Shown: one piece after another, positions 39,147 to 64,000 of the stretch
Numbering within the stretch: the first letter of the stretch is position 1
Layout: each line of letters starts with the position of its first letter
Source: Minisyncoccia bacterium
GTDB lineage: Bacteria; Patescibacteriota; Minisyncoccia; Phycocordibacterales; UBA9973
Direction: 5' to 3'
NCBI GenBank assembly: GCA_039809245.1
Contig: JBDHUP010000001.1
Span: 100,137 to 164,136 of the forward strand
Length of the DNA: 64,000 nt
Notes under the pieces: generated by a model
Told to the model about the DNA's origin: nothing
The model's input: only the letters and a program-made list of their open reading frames with translations
Database searches by the model: none
Position numbers and translations under genes: made by a program

Positions 39147-39180
39147 ATATAAAAACTCCGCTTGCGCAGAGTTTTTATAT
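39147..39180 (-). terminator. Rho-independent terminator of ssrA
   Basis: aaaaactccgc...gcagagttttt inverted repeat directly downstream of the tmRNA 3' end. Confidence 0.55.
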
Positions 39181-39182
39181 TG

Positions 39183-39578
39183 TGGAGATGGGCGGAGTTG
39201 AACCGCCATGCAAAAGAAGTTCATAGGTGAATCTACATGTTTATCATGTTCGATTGGGTTTAAACGGGAAAGCTAGAGAACAGGCAATATACTTTCGCGC
39301 CGAGCTCTTCATTGTCGGAATTCTATGCAAGCGGTATAAAATTCGTAACCCGATTAATTATGCCTCCCCTATTTATCGGATGTCGATAAGAGAGACACCT
39401 GACCGGCTTAAGTTAAGCGAGTACAGGAGCAAAGTTTAAACCAAATGCGTTAGCAAATGGTGACTTTACTGAAGCGACTTTGTTTGCACTTAGTCTTTTC
39501 CAAGAAGTTTAGAAAGATTCCTGGGTACTTTACATGCACATCTATGAGTGACGTCCTTTGTCGAAGCCCGTCATCCCC
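39183..39578 (-). ncRNA. ssrA: tmRNA (SsrA), standard one-piece form. The tag reading frame at 39413..39487 encodes ANKVASVKSPFANAFGLNFAPVLA-stop.
   Basis: 5' end is GGGGATGACGGGCTTCGAC. 3' end is GGCGGTTCAACTCCGCCCATCTCCA, with acceptor GGGGATG/CATCTCC including the G3:U70 pair. Resume context GACUAAGU GCA AAC matches the E. coli UAGUC GCA AAC context. smpB is adjacent. Confidence 0.85.
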
Positions 39579-56653: not shown

Positions 56654-57040
56654 TTACCAAAGTTTAAATAAAACTTCACCGCCGACCATTTCTTTGCGAG
56701 CTTGTTTGTCTGTTAAAATTCCTTTTGGTGTTGTAAGAACCATTAATCCGAAACCATTGCGTGTAGGCTTAATAGCTTTTACTCCTTTGTAGACTCTGCG
56801 TGATGATTTTGAAACGCGTTCTACTCCATTAACTCTAGGTTTACCATCTGCATAAGCAAGGCCAAGTTCAAGAATTGGAAAGCCTTTCTTTGTCTTTTTT
56901 GATACTGAAGTAAGGAATCCTTCTTTTACTAGGCATTCTGCTATAGCAAATTTAATCTTTGAATATGGAACAGTAACAAACTCGTGTTCAGCACGAGAGC
57001 CATTCTTTATCATATTCACCATGTTTGCGATTTGATCCAT
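56654..57040 (-). CDS. rpsH: 30S ribosomal protein S8
   Basis: Reads MDQIANMVNMIKNGSRAEHEFVTVPYSK... Confidence 0.9.
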   Translation of the reverse strand: MDQIANMVNMIKNGSRAEHEFVTVPYSKIKFAIAECLVKEGFLTSVSKKTKKGFPILELGLAYADGKPRVNGVERVSKSSRRVYKGVKAIKPTRNGFGLMVLTTPKGILTDKQARKEMVGGEVLFKLW

Positions 57041-57052
57041 ATAGTTTAATTA

Positions 57053-57238
57053 TTACCAACTTGATTTACGAACACCTGGAAGCATACCTTCGTTTGCCAT
57101 TTCACGGAAACAGATACGGCAAAGTCCGAAATCTCTCATATATGCATGACCGCGTCCACAGCGAAAACAACGATTTGTTTCTCGTGTTGAAAATTTTGAT
57201 TTCTTATGATGTCTTGCTAATACTGATGTTTTTGCCAT
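57053..57238 (-). CDS. rpsN: 30S ribosomal protein S14, type Z (zinc-binding)
   Basis: 61 aa with [20 protein letters not shown]. Confidence 0.9.
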
Positions 57239-57382
57239 AAATAATGAAAGGGATTTTGTTCCCCTAGTGATTTCGAGATATCTCGTTCTTTTTCTTAAAA
57301 GCTTTGGCCCTTAAGGAGAAGCACGGATCTACGACTCACGTTCCCCTATACTAGCAGATAGGGTTATCTATGTCAAACTATT

Positions 57383-57805
57383 CTATTTACAGTTAATACC
57401 AGCTCTATATCCTGGTTCTTCTAGTTCAGTAGTATAGAAACCTTTACTGTCAGCACAATAGTACTTACCTGCTGGGACCTTGATACGAGCTGTGAATGTA
57501 TGGACATTGGCAACACATTCGACAGGGTTATCTATCACCTTCTTTAAGGCATCGAACTTAGATTGCATACTTACACAGATGTTGTTGTACTTAGAAATAA
57601 AGTAGTTATTGTGATCGTAGAAGAACTTTTGAGCTTGGATTTGAAGCTGATTTGAGACAACGTCTTTAATTATAGCTTCAGCAGAAGCTGTATCCTTTGC
57701 TTTTAGAGATCTTTGGAATTCAGCATTCTGATCGAGTTTGAAATATTTATATCCAGCGAATATTAGTATCGCAAATCCTATAATAAACAATATTAGCTTA
57801 GTCAT
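57383..57805 (-). CDS. Hypothetical membrane-anchored protein inserted between rplE and rpsN
   Basis: N-terminal TM segment (LILFIIGFAILIFAGY). C-terminal domain has 4 Cys. Sits between rplE and rpsN. Confidence 0.45.
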   Translation of the reverse strand: MTKLILFIIGFAILIFAGYKYFKLDQNAEFQRSLKAKDTASAEAIIKDVVSNQLQIQAQKFFYDHNNYFISKYNNICVSMQSKFDALKKVIDNPVECVANVHTFTARIKVPAGKYYCADSKGFYTTELEEPGYRAGINCK

Positions 57806-57836
57806 ATTTTCATTATACCATCTACCTCCAAATCAA

Positions 57837-57858
57837 AAAGCCCTTTGCGGGGCTTTTA
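57837..57858 (-). terminator. Strong rho-independent terminator immediately downstream of rplE, inside the spc block
   Basis: aaaagccc tttgcg gggctttt hairpin, followed by a T-run on the minus strand. Confidence 0.65.
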
Positions 57859-57865
57859 TGGAAAC

Positions 57866-58405
57866 CTACTTTTTGAATGGGAACCCGATGAGTTCGAAGA
57901 ATTCGGTTGCTTCAGGCTTTGTTTTAGCTGTTGTAACGATTGTTACGGCCAGTCCGAATATATCTTTGATATCTTCATCACCTGTCTCAGGGAAAATAGT
58001 GTGCTCCTTGATACTCATAGTTAGGTTTCCTATATTATCCACGATCTTTCGATCAACTCCACGGAAGTCTTTTGTTCGAGGGATAGCTACATTAATTAGC
58101 TTATCTAAGAATCCATACATGCGTGCTCCACGAAGAGTAACCATAACACCGATTGGGTCACCTTGGCGCATCTTGAAGCTTGCGATAGATTTCTTTGCTC
58201 CACGAGTTGCAGGCTTCTGACCTGTAATCTTTGCTAGACGCTCCATGATGAACTTATTGCGATCTTTATCACGCTTGATACCACTTCCAGTACCTGAAGC
58301 CACAACAACTTTTACAAGATGAGGCGCGGCCATAGAACTCTTATATCCATACTTAGATTTTAGAGTCGTATATGCTTTCTTTTCTTTTTGTTTTACTGTT
58401 TCCAT
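57866..58405 (-). CDS. rplE: 50S ribosomal protein L5
   Basis: 179 aa with canonical L5 sequence. Confidence 0.9.
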   Translation of the reverse strand: METVKQKEKKAYTTLKSKYGYKSSMAAPHLVKVVVASGTGSGIKRDKDRNKFIMERLAKITGQKPATRGAKKSIASFKMRQGDPIGVMVTLRGARMYGFLDKLINVAIPRTKDFRGVDRKIVDNIGNLTMSIKEHTIFPETGDEDIKDIFGLAVTIVTTAKTKPEATEFFELIGFPFKK

Positions 58406-60818: not shown

Positions 60819-61160
60819 TTATTTCTTTGAGTCAGTCGAAGCTTTCGCGGCTTTGGAAGCGGATATTTCGGCTTCTTTCTTCTTAATCTCTAATTCTTTC
60901 TGCATCTTACCTCCGTGTCTGACGAACTTACGAGTTAGGGAGAATTCACCGAGTCGGTGACCTACCATATCTTCACTCACCAGGACTTCTACGTGTGTCT
61001 TACCATTATGAACTCCGAACACGAATCCTACCATTTCTGGAGAAATTACGCATGCGCGAGACCAGGTTTTAATCATACCTGTTTCAATAGGTTTCTTGCC
61101 GGCAATCTTTTTCAAGAGCCTTTCGTCTACGTATGGACCTTTTTTGAGTGACCTTGTCAT
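60819..61160 (-). CDS. rpsS: 30S ribosomal protein S19, with a Lys/Ala-rich C-terminal tail
   Basis: Reads [19 protein letters not shown]...GHRLGEF. Confidence 0.9.
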
Positions 61161-61336
61161 ATACAATATAAATAAGCTCTTCTGAGCTCGTCCGTCTATA
61201 CTAGCAAATATAGAAATAAAGTCAAATTACTTCCCCTCCCCTATATCATATACATAACCCTTATTTGACAAAACCCACAATAAAGGTAGGATTAAGAAAA
61301 ATTCACAATATTTCAAAACAAACAAAATAATAGAGT

Positions 61337-62098
61337 ATGAACAAGTCACAAACTCAAGATTTGATTAACCAATATGGTTATGACAATCTTAAACTTCTTG
61401 AAGCTGTTGGTGGTTTTTATGAAGTTGCAAAAAATGCCGAGGGTAAACGTTTAACACCTTTAGTTGGCTATGCTGGTAAATACCCAAAAAATGGCCAGGA
61501 ATTTCAATACGTTGGGGAAGTTTATGTGAACTTTGCGAAAGCAGAGGAGCATCCCCACATAATGTACAACTTCGCCAAAAAGCTTTGGGACAAGTTAAAA
61601 ATCCATGAGCCTATAGTATTTATTGGGCCAGCAATGGGTGGCATTTCGGTGGCACAACTCTTAACACTACATGCTTCACAAGACACCAAAGCCAGGTATG
61701 CTTGTGCTGAGAAAATTGTTACGGTAGCAAAAACTGCAACCACTGAAGAACAATCTTCTTTTTCTATCTTAAGGCACAGCCTCTACCCCGGAGAAACAGT
61801 TGGAATTGTTGAAGATGTATTGAACAATTTTTCTACAACGGATAAATTAATCCGGCTTGTAGAATCGTACGGGGCAAAGGTTGGTATTATTGTTGGACTT
61901 TTAAACCGTTCAACAAAAATTGATTCAGTATACATGCACAGAGGTCAACCAATCCCTGTTGTTTCTTTAATAAGAAAATTATTTGAAAGTTACGAGCAGG
62001 AAGATCTGTATGTAATTGAAGATGTGGCAACCGACAATGTAGTTTGGAAGCCAAAGAATGACTGGGATAAATTAAAAAAGGCTGCTGAGAAAAAATAA
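61337..62098 (+). CDS. pyrE: Orotate phosphoribosyltransferase-like type I PRTase
   Basis: PRPP-binding motif VGIVEDVLNNFSTTDKLI. pyrF is adjacent. Confidence 0.5.
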   Translation: MNKSQTQDLINQYGYDNLKLLEAVGGFYEVAKNAEGKRLTPLVGYAGKYPKNGQEFQYVGEVYVNFAKAEEHPHIMYNFAKKLWDKLKIHEPIVFIGPAMGGISVAQLLTLHASQDTKARYACAEKIVTVAKTATTEEQSSFSILRHSLYPGETVGIVEDVLNNFSTTDKLIRLVESYGAKVGIIVGLLNRSTKIDSVYMHRGQPIPVVSLIRKLFESYEQEDLYVIEDVATDNVVWKPKNDWDKLKKAAEKK

Positions 62099-62118
62099 CT
62101 CAACAGCAAGGCAAAAAT

Positions 62119-62150
62119 AAAAAGCAGAATTTAATAATTCTGCTTTTTAA
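62119..62150. terminator. Bidirectional terminator between pyrE (+) and pyrF (-)
   Basis: aaagcagaatta/taattctgcttt palindrome flanked by A/T runs. Confidence 0.6.
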
Positions 62151-62165
62151 ATTTATTCTCTTTTT

Positions 62166-63110
62166 TTATGCAAACTCGCCATATTTTTTACGGCGGAATG
62201 CCATGATCTTACCATTCAAATCCACAATATAATTGTTACACACCTCGGCATAATCTTCATTTTTGGAACCATACAACGCTGCCCGGGAAACATTAAGGAC
62301 AATTCGTCCTCTTCTCGTCATGCCGGCATCAAGCGATGCTTCAAGATCACCTTCCTGTGTACCGTGACCAGGAATTAGTAAGTAGCGATCGTCACCAATT
62401 ATTCGGCGAACAGCTGCCATGTTTTCAGGATACGTTGCCCCGGTAACAAGGCCTACATTAGGTGACCAGGTAATAGCTTTCTTTGCCACGTTTTGATAAA
62501 GCGGTAAAATTTCACCGTTCAAATTAGCTGTAACAATTTTATCCCACCAATCCATCTTGCCAACTCCATCTGGTATGGCAGCAGGATTAAAAGGAAGAGT
62601 CCATAAACCTTGGATTTCATCAGCTTTTTCATTCGATGTCTGGCAAAGGACAAAAACTAACTTATCTCTTAATACTTCTTTTTCATCAACCATCTTAAAA
62701 AAGAACGGCTTATTAGCTTCGCCACCTAAATAAGGAGCAATTGTAAAGGCATCAAATATTTCCAGCATTTCCATATAAGCCATGTTTGTATTGCCAATGT
62801 CTCCACGTTTTCCATCTCCAATTAAAAAAACATCTGGAAATTTTTTTCTGATATACCTTACAATTTCCTCAAGCATTGATATGCCCTCGCCACCAAACCG
62901 TTCGAAAAAAGCCAGGTTGGGTTTATATGATTGTACATTACCACCGGTGGCAACAATGATATTAAGAAGAAAATCATAACAAGCAGTTATTTTTTCCTTT
63001 AAACCATCGCCTTTTACACTTTTTGGTAGTTTATCATAGTCTACATCGAGACCAAGACAACTGTAGCGCCCTAAGGCAGCTAAATTAGAGAGAATCTTGT
63101 TGTAATTCAT
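62166..63110 (-). CDS. pyrF: Orotidine-5'-phosphate decarboxylase, long type-2 form
   Basis: DxKxxDIxxT motif (IGDGKRGDIGNT). 314 aa. Confidence 0.7.
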   Translation of the reverse strand: MNYNKILSNLAALGRYSCLGLDVDYDKLPKSVKGDGLKEKITACYDFLLNIIVATGGNVQSYKPNLAFFERFGGEGISMLEEIVRYIRKKFPDVFLIGDGKRGDIGNTNMAYMEMLEIFDAFTIAPYLGGEANKPFFFKMVDEKEVLRDKLVFVLCQTSNEKADEIQGLWTLPFNPAAIPDGVGKMDWWDKIVTANLNGEILPLYQNVAKKAITWSPNVGLVTGATYPENMAAVRRIIGDDRYLLIPGHGTQEGDLEASLDAGMTRRGRIVLNVSRAALYGSKNEDYAEVCNNYIVDLNGKIMAFRRKKYGEFA

Positions 63111-63240
63111 CGTATTTAGTTTTAAGTGAAAATTATTGTTTGATTCAAAAGCCCAGAAAAGGCGCTTAAATCAAACAATAATAACCATCACAATTTCGTG
63201 AAATTCTACTGTAAATATAATAATTAGTCAAACAGAGGTT

Positions 63241-63627
63241 TTAGAAGATAAAAATTTTCGGGAGGAAAATTATCAGTCCGACTAGGCCGGCGATGGCGAC
63301 GGTTATGAGAACTGCACCAGCGGCGACATCTTTTGTATCGCGAGCATATGGATGATAGTTCGGACTAGTAAGGTCAACTTCAATTTCAATAGCAGTATTT
63401 ATCGTCTCAGCGAGAATAACGAGGCCGATTGCGAAAATTATAGCGATCCACTCCAAAGATGATATATGTAAGATAATACCAAGATATATAGCTAAAACTG
63501 AAAAGAAAACGTGGACCCATGCATTGTGAGTAGTCCTGATGAAAACTCCTATGCCACGAAATGCATGAGTAGTACTCTTTATCCTTTTGACTATTGAGAA
63601 TCTTTTCTTTTCTGATAGCTTTTCCAT
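63241..63627 (-). CDS. dgkA: Diacylglycerol/undecaprenol kinase (DgkA family). The start is the internal Met MEKLSEKK.
   Basis: Three TM helices and the motif ETINTAIEIEVD. Confidence 0.7.
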   Translation of the reverse strand: MEKLSEKKRFSIVKRIKSTTHAFRGIGVFIRTTHNAWVHVFFSVLAIYLGIILHISSLEWIAIIFAIGLVILAETINTAIEIEVDLTSPNYHPYARDTKDVAAGAVLITVAIAGLVGLIIFLPKIFIF

Positions 63628-63642
63628 TGCTTTAGTATACAA

Positions 63643-63670
63643 CAAAAATACCCCTTTCGGGGTATTTTTG
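63643..63670 (-). terminator. Rho-independent terminator immediately after rplB
   Basis: caaaaatacccc tttc ggggtatttttg hairpin flanked by T-runs. Confidence 0.6.
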
Positions 63671-63675
63671 TTTTT

Positions 63676-64000
63676 TATCCTTTCTTTGATTTTCCTACCT
63701 TTCGGCGAGAAACAATCCACATATTTGAGTACTTCTTTGGAGTGCGAGTCTTCTGACCTTTTCCAGATGGCTTACCCCACTTAGTCTTAGCACGGCGTAG
63801 ACCTCGTCCTTGTGCTCCTTCACCTCCTCCGTATGGGTGATCAACTGGGTTCATAGCACTTCCTCGAACTGTAGGTCGGATACCCTTCCAGCGAGAACGT
63901 CCTGCTTTACCAAAGTTTTGAAGTTTATATTCAGAGTTTGAAACTTCACCAATTGAAGCGTAACAATTTTCAGAAACTTTTCGAACTTCTGTTGATGGCA
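63676..64000 (-). CDS. rplB: 50S ribosomal protein L2. C-terminal part only; the N-terminus lies beyond the window end.
   Basis: Translation reads ...[62 protein letters not shown]-stop. Confidence 0.9.

What the first reader, a model, noticed from the sequence alone, without database searches (positions are those of the whole stretch)
57239..57865. Foreign ORF and a strong terminator inserted between rplE and rpsN inside the spc operon
rplE is immediately followed by a canonical terminator (aaaagccc...gggctttt plus T-run). A 140-aa membrane-anchored, Cys-containing hypothetical protein gene then sits before S14/S8/L6 and the following genes. There is also a 140-nt untranslated gap (57239..57382) before rpsN.

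This splits the spc operon into at least two transcription units. The inserted protein could be a ribosome-associated membrane tether, or simply a selfish insertion.
Basis: seen in the sequence. Interest (0 to 1): 0.5.

Follow-up and report, generated by a model that had tools for sequence, protein, structure and literature searches.

The report
Pilin-like gene beside new ribosomal leader RNA
In this ultra-small (CPR/Paceibacteria-type) bacterium, a real gene for a membrane-anchored, pilin-shaped surface protein sits between ribosomal genes rplE and rpsN, and the "empty" 144 bases after it are a strongly conserved promoter plus a folded RNA leader, absent from Rfam, that probably lets a ribosomal protein (best guess S8) control its own operon.

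Summary
rplE (57866-58405) is followed by a hairpin plus U-run (57857-57830). Next come a 140-aa ORF (57383-57805), a 144-nt gap, and then rpsN-rpsH.

The gap is the more important part. It holds a TTGACA-17-TAGTAT promoter and a roughly 100-nt structured leader. The same leader occurs upstream of rpsN in 58 metagenomic loci. Covariation support is strong, and there is no Rfam match. Its invariant internal loop (GAUC / GAUAUC) has the topology of the S8 site of 16S helix 21.

The leader also exists in relatives with no insertion, so the internal promoter predates the insert. The junction upstream of it is an insertion hotspot, and other lineages carry true type IV pilin genes there.

A recent foreign insertion or a ribosome tether is not supported.

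The parts
57866..58405 (-). rplE (ribosomal protein L5), the last gene of the upstream unit
   Evidence: Pfam PF00281 and PF00673. It is 92-100% identical to rplE in loci L001-L007.
57830..57857 (-). Intrinsic-terminator-like hairpin (stem 57857-57850 / 57843-57836, loop CGCAAA) plus a U-rich tail
   Evidence: dG is -11.1 kcal/mol. Equivalent hairpins with other stem sequences follow rplE in insert-bearing relatives and are absent in insert-free ones.
57812..57820 (-). Extended -10 promoter TGgTATAAT of ORF140. The ATG lies 6 nt downstream, so the mRNA is predicted to be leaderless.
   Evidence: A TATAAT-like box lies exactly 6 nt before the ATG in 8 of 8 ORF140 loci. The same layout precedes the cassettes inserted at this site in other lineages.
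57383..57805 (-). ORF140: a membrane-anchored, four-Cys, pilin-fold protein without a prepilin motif
57348..57376 (-). Sigma-70-type promoter of the rpsN unit: -35 TTGACA 57376-57371, TG 57356-57355, -10 TAGTAT 57353-57348
   Evidence: Found by the promoter scan. TTGAC[AT], 17 nt (16 nt in one), TAnnnT with an upstream TG occurs in 48 of 48 unique leaders.
57267..57339 (-). Main leader hairpin of the rpsN 5' UTR (predicted TSS about 57341)
   Evidence: dG is -21.3 kcal/mol, z -3.1. CM R1 hits 57277-57329 at 44.9 bits, E 4e-8. Covariation is shown on A7 and A9.
57277..57329 (-). Conserved core. It holds the S8-site-like asymmetric loop (5' GAUC 57329-57326; 3' GAUAUC 57282-57277, with U57280 and A57279 equivalent to U641 and A642). 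It also holds P3 with a bulged A, the CUC/AAA loop and P4 CUUAAG/UUUUAAG.
   Evidence: GAUC is invariant in all 53 distinct sequences although it was not in the search pattern. E. coli h21 was read. The S8 site definition comes from PMC4176348.
57248..57265 (-). Second small hairpin (AGGGGA/UCCCUU), followed by UCAUUAUUU and the rpsN AUG
   Evidence: Fold. GGGG..CCCC hairpins with U-rich tails occur in the closest relatives L001, L002 and L008. Its role was not resolved.
57053..57238 (-). rpsN (S14, 61 aa, Zn-ribbon type), the first gene of the leader-controlled unit
   Evidence: Pfam PF00253.
56654..57040 (-). rpsH (S8), the candidate ligand of the leader
   Evidence: Pfam PF00410. Its role as ligand is an inference.

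Best explanation
The window comes from a CPR bacterium of the Minisyncoccia/Paceibacteria type. In this clade the r-protein supercluster carries a conserved internal transcription start between rplE and rpsN.

The start consists of a near-consensus extended -10 sigma-70 promoter followed by a roughly 100-nt structured 5' leader. The leader is one long irregular hairpin. [quoted passage not shown]

The most likely function is autogenous feedback. Free S8, encoded by the second gene of the unit, binds the leader. It then either blocks 30S access to the A/U-rich, SD-less start region of rpsN or promotes termination or decay at the U-rich tract. That would tune S14-S8-L6-L18-S5-L15 synthesis to rRNA supply.

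Because downstream genes have their own promoter, the few bases between the rplE stop and the -35 box form a permissive landing site. Different lineages carry different cassettes there, each usually with a terminator after rplE and a leaderless-type promoter.

In the window's subclade the cassette is ORF140. This is a vertically inherited gene under purifying selection. It encodes a bitopic membrane protein whose extracytoplasmic domain has a type-IV-pilin-like fold with two probable disulfides, and it has no prepilin-peptidase site. It is probably an unprocessed cell-surface or pilus-associated protein.

Shown: the anatomy, conservation, covariation, promoter conservation, purifying selection and fold similarity. 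Inferred: transcript ends, S8 as the ligand, the mode of repression, and the cellular role of ORF140.
For: Leader:
- The pattern scan found 67 loci, and 58 have the motif about 70-200 nt upstream of rpsN. In these, rplE is 60-91% and rpsH 53-85% identical to the window's proteins.
- Promoter elements are present in 48 of 48 unique leaders.
- RNAalifold shows compensatory changes at 8 of 18 pairs.
- On the unfitted MAFFT alignment A7, 85% of cells pair against 37-54% for slid controls, and 0 of 500 shuffles reach the covariation score.
- On the CM-fitted alignment A9, 90% of cells pair against 37-52%, and 18 of 31 pairs carry double changes.
- The sense strand scores 45-111 bits and the antisense strand 20-37 bits. 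There are many G-U pairs, including one invariant pair.
- rplE dS between the close loci is 0.5 to above 2, so the identity of the leader reflects selection and not recent ancestry.
- No Rfam 15 family matches.

S8 likeness:
- The h21 loop is defined in PMC4176348.
- The E. coli sequence A595-A596-G597-U598-C599 / G639-A640-U641-A642-C643-U644 was read.
- The leader's 5' GAUC is invariant although it was not part of the search pattern.
- The 2024 review PMC10931766 says spc regulation outside Gammaproteobacteria is unknown.

Hotspot:
- 19 loci have rplE abutting the -35 box, and about 30 carry inserts of 0.4-3.4 kb.
- Inserts include N_methyl type IV pilins in 10 sequence-distinct loci (9 distinct pilin proteins), a small TM protein, HicA and others.
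- Terminators follow rplE only where an insert is present.

ORF140.
Against: - No transcript data exist. The promoters, the terminator and the leaderless start are all predictions.
- S8 binding is untested. The leader has A-U where the rRNA has G597-C643. It also has an extra bulged A, and further invariant elements (CUC/AAA, CUUAAG) that the minimal S8 site does not explain.
- The organism's own 16S h21 could not be obtained.
- The nucleotides fixed in the search pattern are invariant by ascertainment.
- The distance from the hairpin to the AUG varies from about 10 nt in most loci to 29 nt in the window and up to about 200 nt elsewhere. That weakens a purely steric model.
Confidence: 0.7

Rival explanations
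1. A recently acquired foreign or selfish gene, with its terminator, broke a previously continuous spc operon. Its product may tether ribosomes to the membrane.
For: - A terminator-like hairpin follows rplE and is absent in insert-free relatives.
- The ORF has no Pfam family, and its family is rare, with 17 representatives among 1.84 billion proteins.
- The site also holds clearly mobile cargo such as HicA/HicB in L002.
Against: - Composition equals the genome's.
- The ORF is conserved at this site across relatives with saturated dS, and dN/dS is 0.04-0.17.
- The rpsN promoter and leader exist without any insert in 19 loci.
- The four invariant Cys, the N-in anchor and the pilin-like fold indicate an extracytoplasmic domain.
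- No transposase, integrase or repeats flank it.
Confidence: 0.07
2. The leader is a genuine cis-regulatory RNA, but its ligand is not S8. It could be another product of the unit (S14, L6, L18, S5, L15), or L5 encoded just upstream, or a small molecule, or no ligand at all. In the last case it would be a 5' stabilising hairpin or an attenuator read by NusA or RNA polymerase.
For: - The invariant segment of about 45 nt is larger than a minimal S8 site. It includes a CUC/AAA loop and the helix CUUAAG/UUUUAAG.
- The 597-643 equivalent is A-U and not G-C (one search compared).
- U-rich tracts follow the hairpins, as in attenuators.
- The hairpin sits at the very 5' end of the predicted transcript.
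Against: - The loop matches the 3+4-nucleotide asymmetric S8 loop, with identical U641, A642, U598-A640 and C599-G639.
- S8 is the established spc repressor in E. coli.
- The apical loop varies in length and sequence, which argues against loop-binding proteins such as L5.
Confidence: 0.3
3. The conserved palindromic block acts at the DNA level, as an operator for a transcription factor next to the promoter, and not as RNA.
For: It lies directly downstream of a strong promoter. The reverse strand also gives weak CM hits because the element is hairpin-symmetric.
Against: - Pairs are kept through G-U wobble: one invariant G-U, and columns with GU in 27 sequences and UG in 13. On the other strand, or in duplex DNA, these would be mismatches or meaningless.
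- The sense strand scores 45-111 bits and the antisense 20-37 bits.
- Apical insertions of variable length preserve the stem.
- Conserved asymmetric bulges are not features of a DNA palindrome.
Confidence: 0.04
4. ORF140 is a bona fide type IV (pseudo)pilin that is processed by prepilin peptidase and assembled into a pilus.
For: - hhalign to pilins at the same site gives 80% probability.
- True pilins occupy the same genomic slot in sister lineages.
- G10 is nearly invariant inside the N-terminal helix.
Against: - There is no N_methyl motif (no G|F-T-L-I-E and no Glu at +5), and Pfam PF07963 is absent in all 22 family members.
- Cleavage after G10 would leave only about 9 hydrophobic residues.
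Confidence: 0.1

Closest known systems
E. coli / Gammaproteobacteria S8-interacting RNA of the spc operon (Cerretti 1988; Merianos 2004; Fu et al. 2013, PMC3616713)
   Same: - It lies in the spc gene cluster.
- It is a hairpin with a variable distal stem and a highly conserved asymmetric internal loop resembling the S8 site of 16S h21.
- Bulged adenosine(s) sit next to the core.
- The expected outcome is feedback control of S14, S8, L6 and the genes after them.
   Different: - It sits in a 5' UTR upstream of rpsN behind its own promoter, and does not overlap the rplE start codon.
- There is no sequence similarity and no Rfam hit.
- The two stacked pairs are G-C then A-U, where the rRNA has A-U then G-C.
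- It carries additional invariant elements.
- It occurs in CPR bacteria, so it is presumably of independent origin.
Ribosomal-protein leader candidates found by comparative genomics (Eckert and Weinberg 2020, PMC7247131)
   Same: It is a conserved, covarying structure directly upstream of r-protein genes and is restricted to one lineage.
   Different: That paper reports no S14, S8 or spc leader and no CPR motif. This motif is not in Rfam 15.
Type IV pilins and minor pilins (T. thermophilus PilA4 6xxd, N. meningitidis PilV, PilX and ComP, P. aeruginosa PilE)
   Same: - Conserved Cys pairs lie in the C-terminal part.
- It occupies the same genomic slot as genuine pilins in sister lineages.
   Different: - It has no class III signal peptide or N-methylation motif and no Glu5.
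- The helix starts at residue 2 as an uncleaved anchor.
- Sequence similarity is detectable only profile to profile.
Intrinsic terminator plus leaderless-mRNA promoter modules
   Same: A GC-rich stem with a U-run follows the upstream gene, and an extended -10 box lies 6 nt before the ATG.
   Different: Nothing unusual. The point of note is that the module recurs with different cassettes at this one junction.

Membership tests
Ribosomal-protein autoregulatory leader (r-leader) | A conserved RNA element in the 5' UTR or intergenic region directly upstream of r-protein gene(s) | tested here: met
   58 of 67 pattern hits lie 70-200 nt upstream of rpsN. The CM hits 54 loci at E no higher than 5e-8.
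Ribosomal-protein autoregulatory leader (r-leader) | Secondary structure supported by covariation | tested here: met
   A7 (unfitted) has 85% of cells paired against at most 54% for slid controls, with 0 of 500 shuffles reaching the score. A9 has 18 of 31 pairs with double changes. RNAalifold shows 8 of 18.
Ribosomal-protein autoregulatory leader (r-leader) | Mimicry of the rRNA binding site of a protein encoded in the operon | tested here: inconclusive
   The loop topology, U641/A642, U598-A640 and C599-G639 match the E. coli h21 S8 site. The 597-643 equivalent is A-U, and the clade's own 16S was not available.
Ribosomal-protein autoregulatory leader (r-leader) | Binding of the r-protein and repression of the operon | not testable with these tools
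   This needs EMSA or reporter assays.
E. coli-type S8/spc operator | Overlaps the rplE translation start | tested here: not met
   The element lies downstream of rplE and upstream of rpsN.
E. coli-type S8/spc operator | Homology to the described family or any Rfam model | tested here: not met
   There is no Rfam hit, even at E no higher than 10, across 56900-58000.
Type IV pilin (PF07963 N_methyl proteins) | Class III signal peptide: G | F/M-x-x-x-E cleavage and methylation motif | tested here: not met
   No PF07963 hit in ORF140 or in any of the 22 family members. The N-terminus is MTKLILFIIGFAILIF. Pilins in the same slot elsewhere do hit PF07963 at E 4.6e-9.
Type IV pilin (PF07963 N_methyl proteins) | Pilin fold: a long alpha-1 helix packed on an antiparallel beta-sheet | tested here: met
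   [not shown]
Type IV pilin (PF07963 N_methyl proteins) | Detectable sequence relationship to pilins | tested here: inconclusive
   hhalign A5 against A6 gives 80% probability and E 1.3e-5, over 45 columns of the alpha-1C region only.
Intrinsic (Rho-independent) terminator | A GC-rich stem-loop immediately followed by a U-tract, downstream of a stop codon | tested here: met
   57857-57830, dG -11.1. Analogous hairpins occur in relatives. The scanner did not list it.
Intrinsic (Rho-independent) terminator | Transcripts actually end there | not testable with these tools
   This needs RNA-seq or Term-seq.
Leaderless mRNA | A promoter -10 element positioned so that the TSS coincides with the start codon | tested here: met
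   TATAAT-N6-ATG in 8 of 8 ORF140 loci and in several cassettes at the same site. The TSS itself has not been measured.

The most novel reading that the evidence does not exclude
A CPR-specific class of S8-responsive leader RNA has evolved independently of the gammaproteobacterial spc operator. It makes rpsN and the genes after it an autonomous, feedback-controlled unit. The promoter it brings created a landing pad inside the most conserved gene cluster of bacteria. That pad has been colonised repeatedly by leaderless cassettes for pili and pilin-fold surface proteins. One of these is a new family of unprocessed, membrane-anchored pilin-fold proteins (ORF140). The arrangement would link expression of the attachment apparatus of these episymbionts to the ribosomal gene neighbourhood.
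Probability: 0.35. Interest if true: 0.65.

Novelty: new member of a known kind. Interest (0 to 1): 0.55.

Why it matters
- How the spc cluster is regulated outside Gammaproteobacteria is an acknowledged gap. The 2024 review PMC10931766 says the regulatory mechanism 'remains unknown' in B. subtilis and other species.
- This is a compact leader of about 75-100 nt with strong covariation and an S8-like loop. It gives a directly testable candidate in CPR bacteria, where almost no gene regulation has been characterised.
- It also explains why the otherwise rigid r-protein supercluster is interrupted at this exact junction in many Paceibacteria genomes.
- It flags pilin and pilin-like genes embedded there. 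These are relevant to the episymbiotic lifestyle, since type IV pili drive host attachment in cultivated CPR (bioRxiv 10.1101/2024.11.25.624915, listed).
- For annotation, the 144-nt 'gap' should be marked as a regulatory RNA, and ORF140 as a pilin-fold membrane protein.

Tried and rejected
- Rfam at gathering and permissive thresholds gave nothing at the locus.
- Pfam on ORF140 and on its 22-member family gave only noise.
- The first AF2 run, with 11 close homologues, gave pLDDT 56 and was unusable. It was rescued by adding distant homologues from the profile search.
I checked the pattern locally and repeated the scan.
- Eight of the 67 pattern hits are chance matches with no rpsN nearby: L023, L026, L035, L046, L049, L065, L066 and L076.
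- I looked for a 16S gene in all 78 held sequences to compare the clade's own helix 21 and found none.
- I tried to read the S8 SELEX, in-vivo selection and S8-mRNA crystal papers (PMC1369478, PMC15377, PMC1370587). None is held.
- The run of 100 N in L005 at the leader is a scaffolding gap flanked by a duplicated 55-nt leader segment, not a masked feature.
- The GGAGG plus 2-codon mini-ORF (ATG GTA TAA, 57829-57813) upstream of ORF140 is not conserved in relatives, so I dismissed it as chance.
- A distant 201-aa homologue (P0013) is not in an r-protein cluster, so the family is not tied to this site in general.

Full report
**Observation**

The region was read on both strands. All genes of the r-protein cluster lie on the minus strand.

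- rplE is 57866-58405, with its stop at 57868-57866.
- It is followed by AAAAGCCC-cgcaaa-GGGCUUUU (57857-57836) and UGAUUU. The hairpin has dG -11.1 kcal/mol.
- A 140-codon ORF runs 57805-57383.
- After a 144-nt gap (57382-57239) come rpsN (57238-57053; 61 aa, Zn type) and rpsH. Then follow rplF, rplR, rpsE, rplO, secY and adk.

**Organism**

Close relatives of the locus are MAGs labelled Minisyncoccia and Candidatus Paceibacterota, which are CPR bacteria. The window has 35.9% GC.

**ORF140 is a real gene, and it is old at this site**

- A search of 5.8 billion proteins found 10 homologues at 52-91% identity. All are about 140 aa; one carries a 14-residue N-terminal extension.
- Every contig that could be read places the gene between rplE and rpsN.
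- In some relatives extra genes sit on either side of it. L002 has HicA and its partner. L001, L002 and L005 have a 127-, 161- or 170-aa ORF between ORF140 and rpsN, with signal-peptide-like N-termini in L001 and L002.
- Pairwise dN/dS is 0.04-0.17 wherever dS can be computed. dS is 0.7 to above 2, and it is 0.5-3 for rplE between the same loci.
- The gene is therefore under purifying selection in lineages that are saturated at silent sites.
- Its GC (35.5%) and GC3 (33%) are those of its neighbours. It is not a compositionally foreign or recent insertion.

**What ORF140 encodes**

- The alignment shows a basic residue at position 3 and a hydrophobic helix up to Y19. Four Cys are invariant (C77, C97, C117, C139), as is the signature HTFTAR..YYCAD..GF...G..CK.
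- Pfam finds nothing.
- A profile search of 1.84 billion representatives found only 17 proteins. Several are about 200 aa long and share the Cys pattern.
- With these added, AlphaFold2 gave pLDDT 83.5 and pTM 0.65. The model has one helix spanning residues 2-65 followed by a four-stranded sheet.
- Foldseek against PDB was not significant.
- The family profile aligns to genuine pilins found at the same genomic slot in other lineages, with 80% probability and E 1.3e-5.
- The prepilin G|FTLIE motif is absent.

I therefore call it a pilin-fold, membrane-anchored and probably disulfide-bonded extracytoplasmic protein, and not a pilin. A ribosome-tether role has no support.

**Expression signals of ORF140**

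- TGgTATAAT (57820-57812) lies 6 nt before the ATG.
- The same -10 box with the same 6-nt spacing occurs in 8 of 8 ORF140 loci. It is preceded by the GGGGCUUUU..AUUU arm of a hairpin.
- This predicts a leaderless mRNA that starts at the AUG.

**The 144-nt gap**

Directly after the ORF140 stop lie TTGACA (57376-57371), 17 nt including TG, and TAGTAT (57353-57348). The region from there to the rpsN ATG is almost identical in L001 and L002, even though the flanking coding DNA is saturated at silent sites.

A degenerate pattern from the core was scanned against metagenome contigs and returned 67 loci.

- 58 of them carry the motif about 70-200 nt upstream of rpsN.
- In these genomes L5 is only 60-91% and S8 only 53-85% identical to the window's proteins.
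- All 48 unique sequences with enough upstream DNA have TTGAC[AT], a 17-nt spacer (16 nt in one), and TAnnnT with an extended -10 TG.

**Leader structure**

Single-sequence folds give the same shape in nearly every locus. The elements, from base to tip, are:

- basal helices P1 and P2;
- an asymmetric loop around an invariant 5' GAUC and 3' GAUAUC;
- helix P3 with a bulged A;
- a CUC/AAA internal loop;
- helix P4 (CUUAAG/UUUUAAG);
- an apical stem of variable length and sequence.

The evidence for this structure is as follows.

- RNAalifold found compensatory changes at 8 of 18 pairs.
- On a plain MAFFT alignment of 34 sequences, my 31-pair structure has 85% of cells paired, against 37-54% when partners are slid. 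Fourteen pairs show double changes, and no shuffle of 500 reaches the covariation score.
- A covariance model finds the element in 54 loci at E no higher than 5e-8. The window hit is 57329-57277 at 44.9 bits.
- On the model-fitted alignment, 90% of cells pair against 37-52% for slid controls, and 18 of 31 pairs have double changes. This alignment leans towards the model.
- G-U pairs include one invariant pair. The sense strand scores 45-111 bits and the antisense 20-37 bits. This shows it is an RNA on the rpsN strand and not a DNA palindrome.
- Rfam 15 has no match, even at E no higher than 10.
- The 2020 survey of r-leaders lists no S14, S8 or spc motif.

**Which ligand?**

PMC4176348 defines the S8 site of 16S helix 21 as a helix interrupted by seven conserved nucleotides. 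These form A595·(A596-U644) and (G597-C643)·U641, with A642 invariant, flanked by U598-A640.

The E. coli sequence confirms AAGUC(595-599) / GAUACU(639-644). The leader reads N-G-A-U-C / G-A-U-A-U-C. The correspondences are:

- an unpaired nucleotide, then G-C, equivalent to 596-644, which is C-G in Thermus;
- A-U, equivalent to 597-643;
- a bulged U-A identical to U641-A642;
- U-A and C-G identical to 598-640 and 599-639.

S8 is encoded by the second gene of the unit and is the known spc repressor in E. coli. There it binds at the rplE start. How spc is regulated elsewhere is described as unknown.

I therefore favour S8, at roughly even odds. The A-U replacement, the extra bulged A, and the additional invariant CUC/AAA and CUUAAG elements leave room for another protein.

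**Mechanism**

In most loci the 3' strand of P1 ends 10-13 nt before the AUG. The start region is A/U-rich and has no Shine-Dalgarno sequence. Two mechanisms are plausible and I cannot separate them.

- A protein-stabilised hairpin occludes the 30S landing site.
- Alternatively, it enhances termination at the following U-rich tract, as L4 does in the S10 leader.

In the window's subgroup a second small hairpin (57265-57248) and a U-rich tail intervene.

**The insertion hotspot**

- In 19 loci the rplE stop abuts the -35 box, with a gap of -2 to 20 nt (93 nt in one locus) and no hairpin.
- In about 30 loci, 0.4-3.4 kb is inserted exactly there.
- The commonest cargo is a small TM protein plus a genuine type IV pilin (GFTLIELLVV; PF07963, E 4.6e-9), found in 10 sequence-distinct loci.
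- Other cargo includes ORF140, HicAB, a nucleotidyltransferase, DUF5672 and an aspartyl-protease-like protein.
- Insert-bearing loci nearly always have a terminator after rplE and a TATAAT-N6-ATG start for the first cassette gene.

The internal promoter and leader are therefore ancestral.

**Verdict**

The cluster is divided, but the division predates the insert. The protein is a pilin-fold surface protein, and the 'gap' is the most interesting part: an undescribed r-protein leader candidate.

The novelty is a new member of a known kind. Interest is moderate, because the leader gives a concrete and testable handle on spc regulation outside Gammaproteobacteria and on gene regulation in CPR bacteria.

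Noticed in passing
window 61167-63674 (between rpsS 60819-61166 and rplB, which ends at 63675): The S10-type cluster is interrupted a second time. About 2.5 kb lies between rplB and rpsS. It holds a 159-aa multi-TM ORF (63241-63720, minus), a 314-aa ORF that I read as pyrF-like (62166-63110, minus) and a 253-aa plus-strand ORF that I read as phosphoribosyltransferase-like (61337-62098). Those two names are my reading of the translations only and were not checked by any search. In relative L001 a dihydroorotate dehydrogenase gene (Pfam hit) lies upstream of rpsS.
   Followed up: partly
L015, L016, L032, L051, L061, L072 (between the leader hairpin and the rpsN ATG): Six loci carry an extra insertion of about 70 nt. 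It begins CUUGUCCCGUUAGAAAAU and ends AAUUUUUUAAU(G/A)GGAUG. Its ends are mutually complementary, so a long-range helix would enclose the start codon. It could be a second regulatory stem or a miniature mobile element.
   Followed up: no
window 57348-57340 and 57266-57258 (minus strand): The 9-nt direct repeat UAGGGGAAC occurs at the predicted 5' end of the leader and again as the 5' arm of the second hairpin. UCCCUU (57253-57248) could pair with either copy, which allows alternative structures. Only GGGGA is shared with relatives.
   Followed up: partly
L002 1830-3902: In GCA_040384425.1 the same rplE-ORF140 junction holds about 2 kb more. This includes a HicA toxin (PF07927) with an upstream HicB-like ORF, plus three unknown ORFs, two of them on the opposite strand. 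The site accumulates mobile cargo.
   Followed up: partly
L005 6079-6178: A run of 100 N sits inside the leader and is flanked by a duplicated 55-nt leader segment. It is a scaffolding artefact in the public MAG and not biology.
   Followed up: yes
L078 about 1020-1050; cassettes in L022, L033, L052, L063: TATAAT boxes 6-7 nt before ATG recur at unrelated genes of these CPR genomes. rpsN and rpsH in the window also lack Shine-Dalgarno sequences. Leaderless or SD-independent initiation may be common in this clade.
   Followed up: no
window 39180-39578 (minus strand) and eight tRNA genes: Rfam finds a tmRNA (108.7 bits) and eight tRNAs elsewhere in the window, and no rRNA.
   Followed up: no
L001 4577-4960; L002 4593-5078; JGI contig (803-1384): In several relatives a second, non-homologous gene sits between ORF140 and the rpsN promoter. 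It encodes a 127-, 161- or 193-aa protein with no Pfam family on record; the L001 and L002 products have a signal-peptide-like N-terminus and a charged, coiled-coil-looking body.
   Followed up: no
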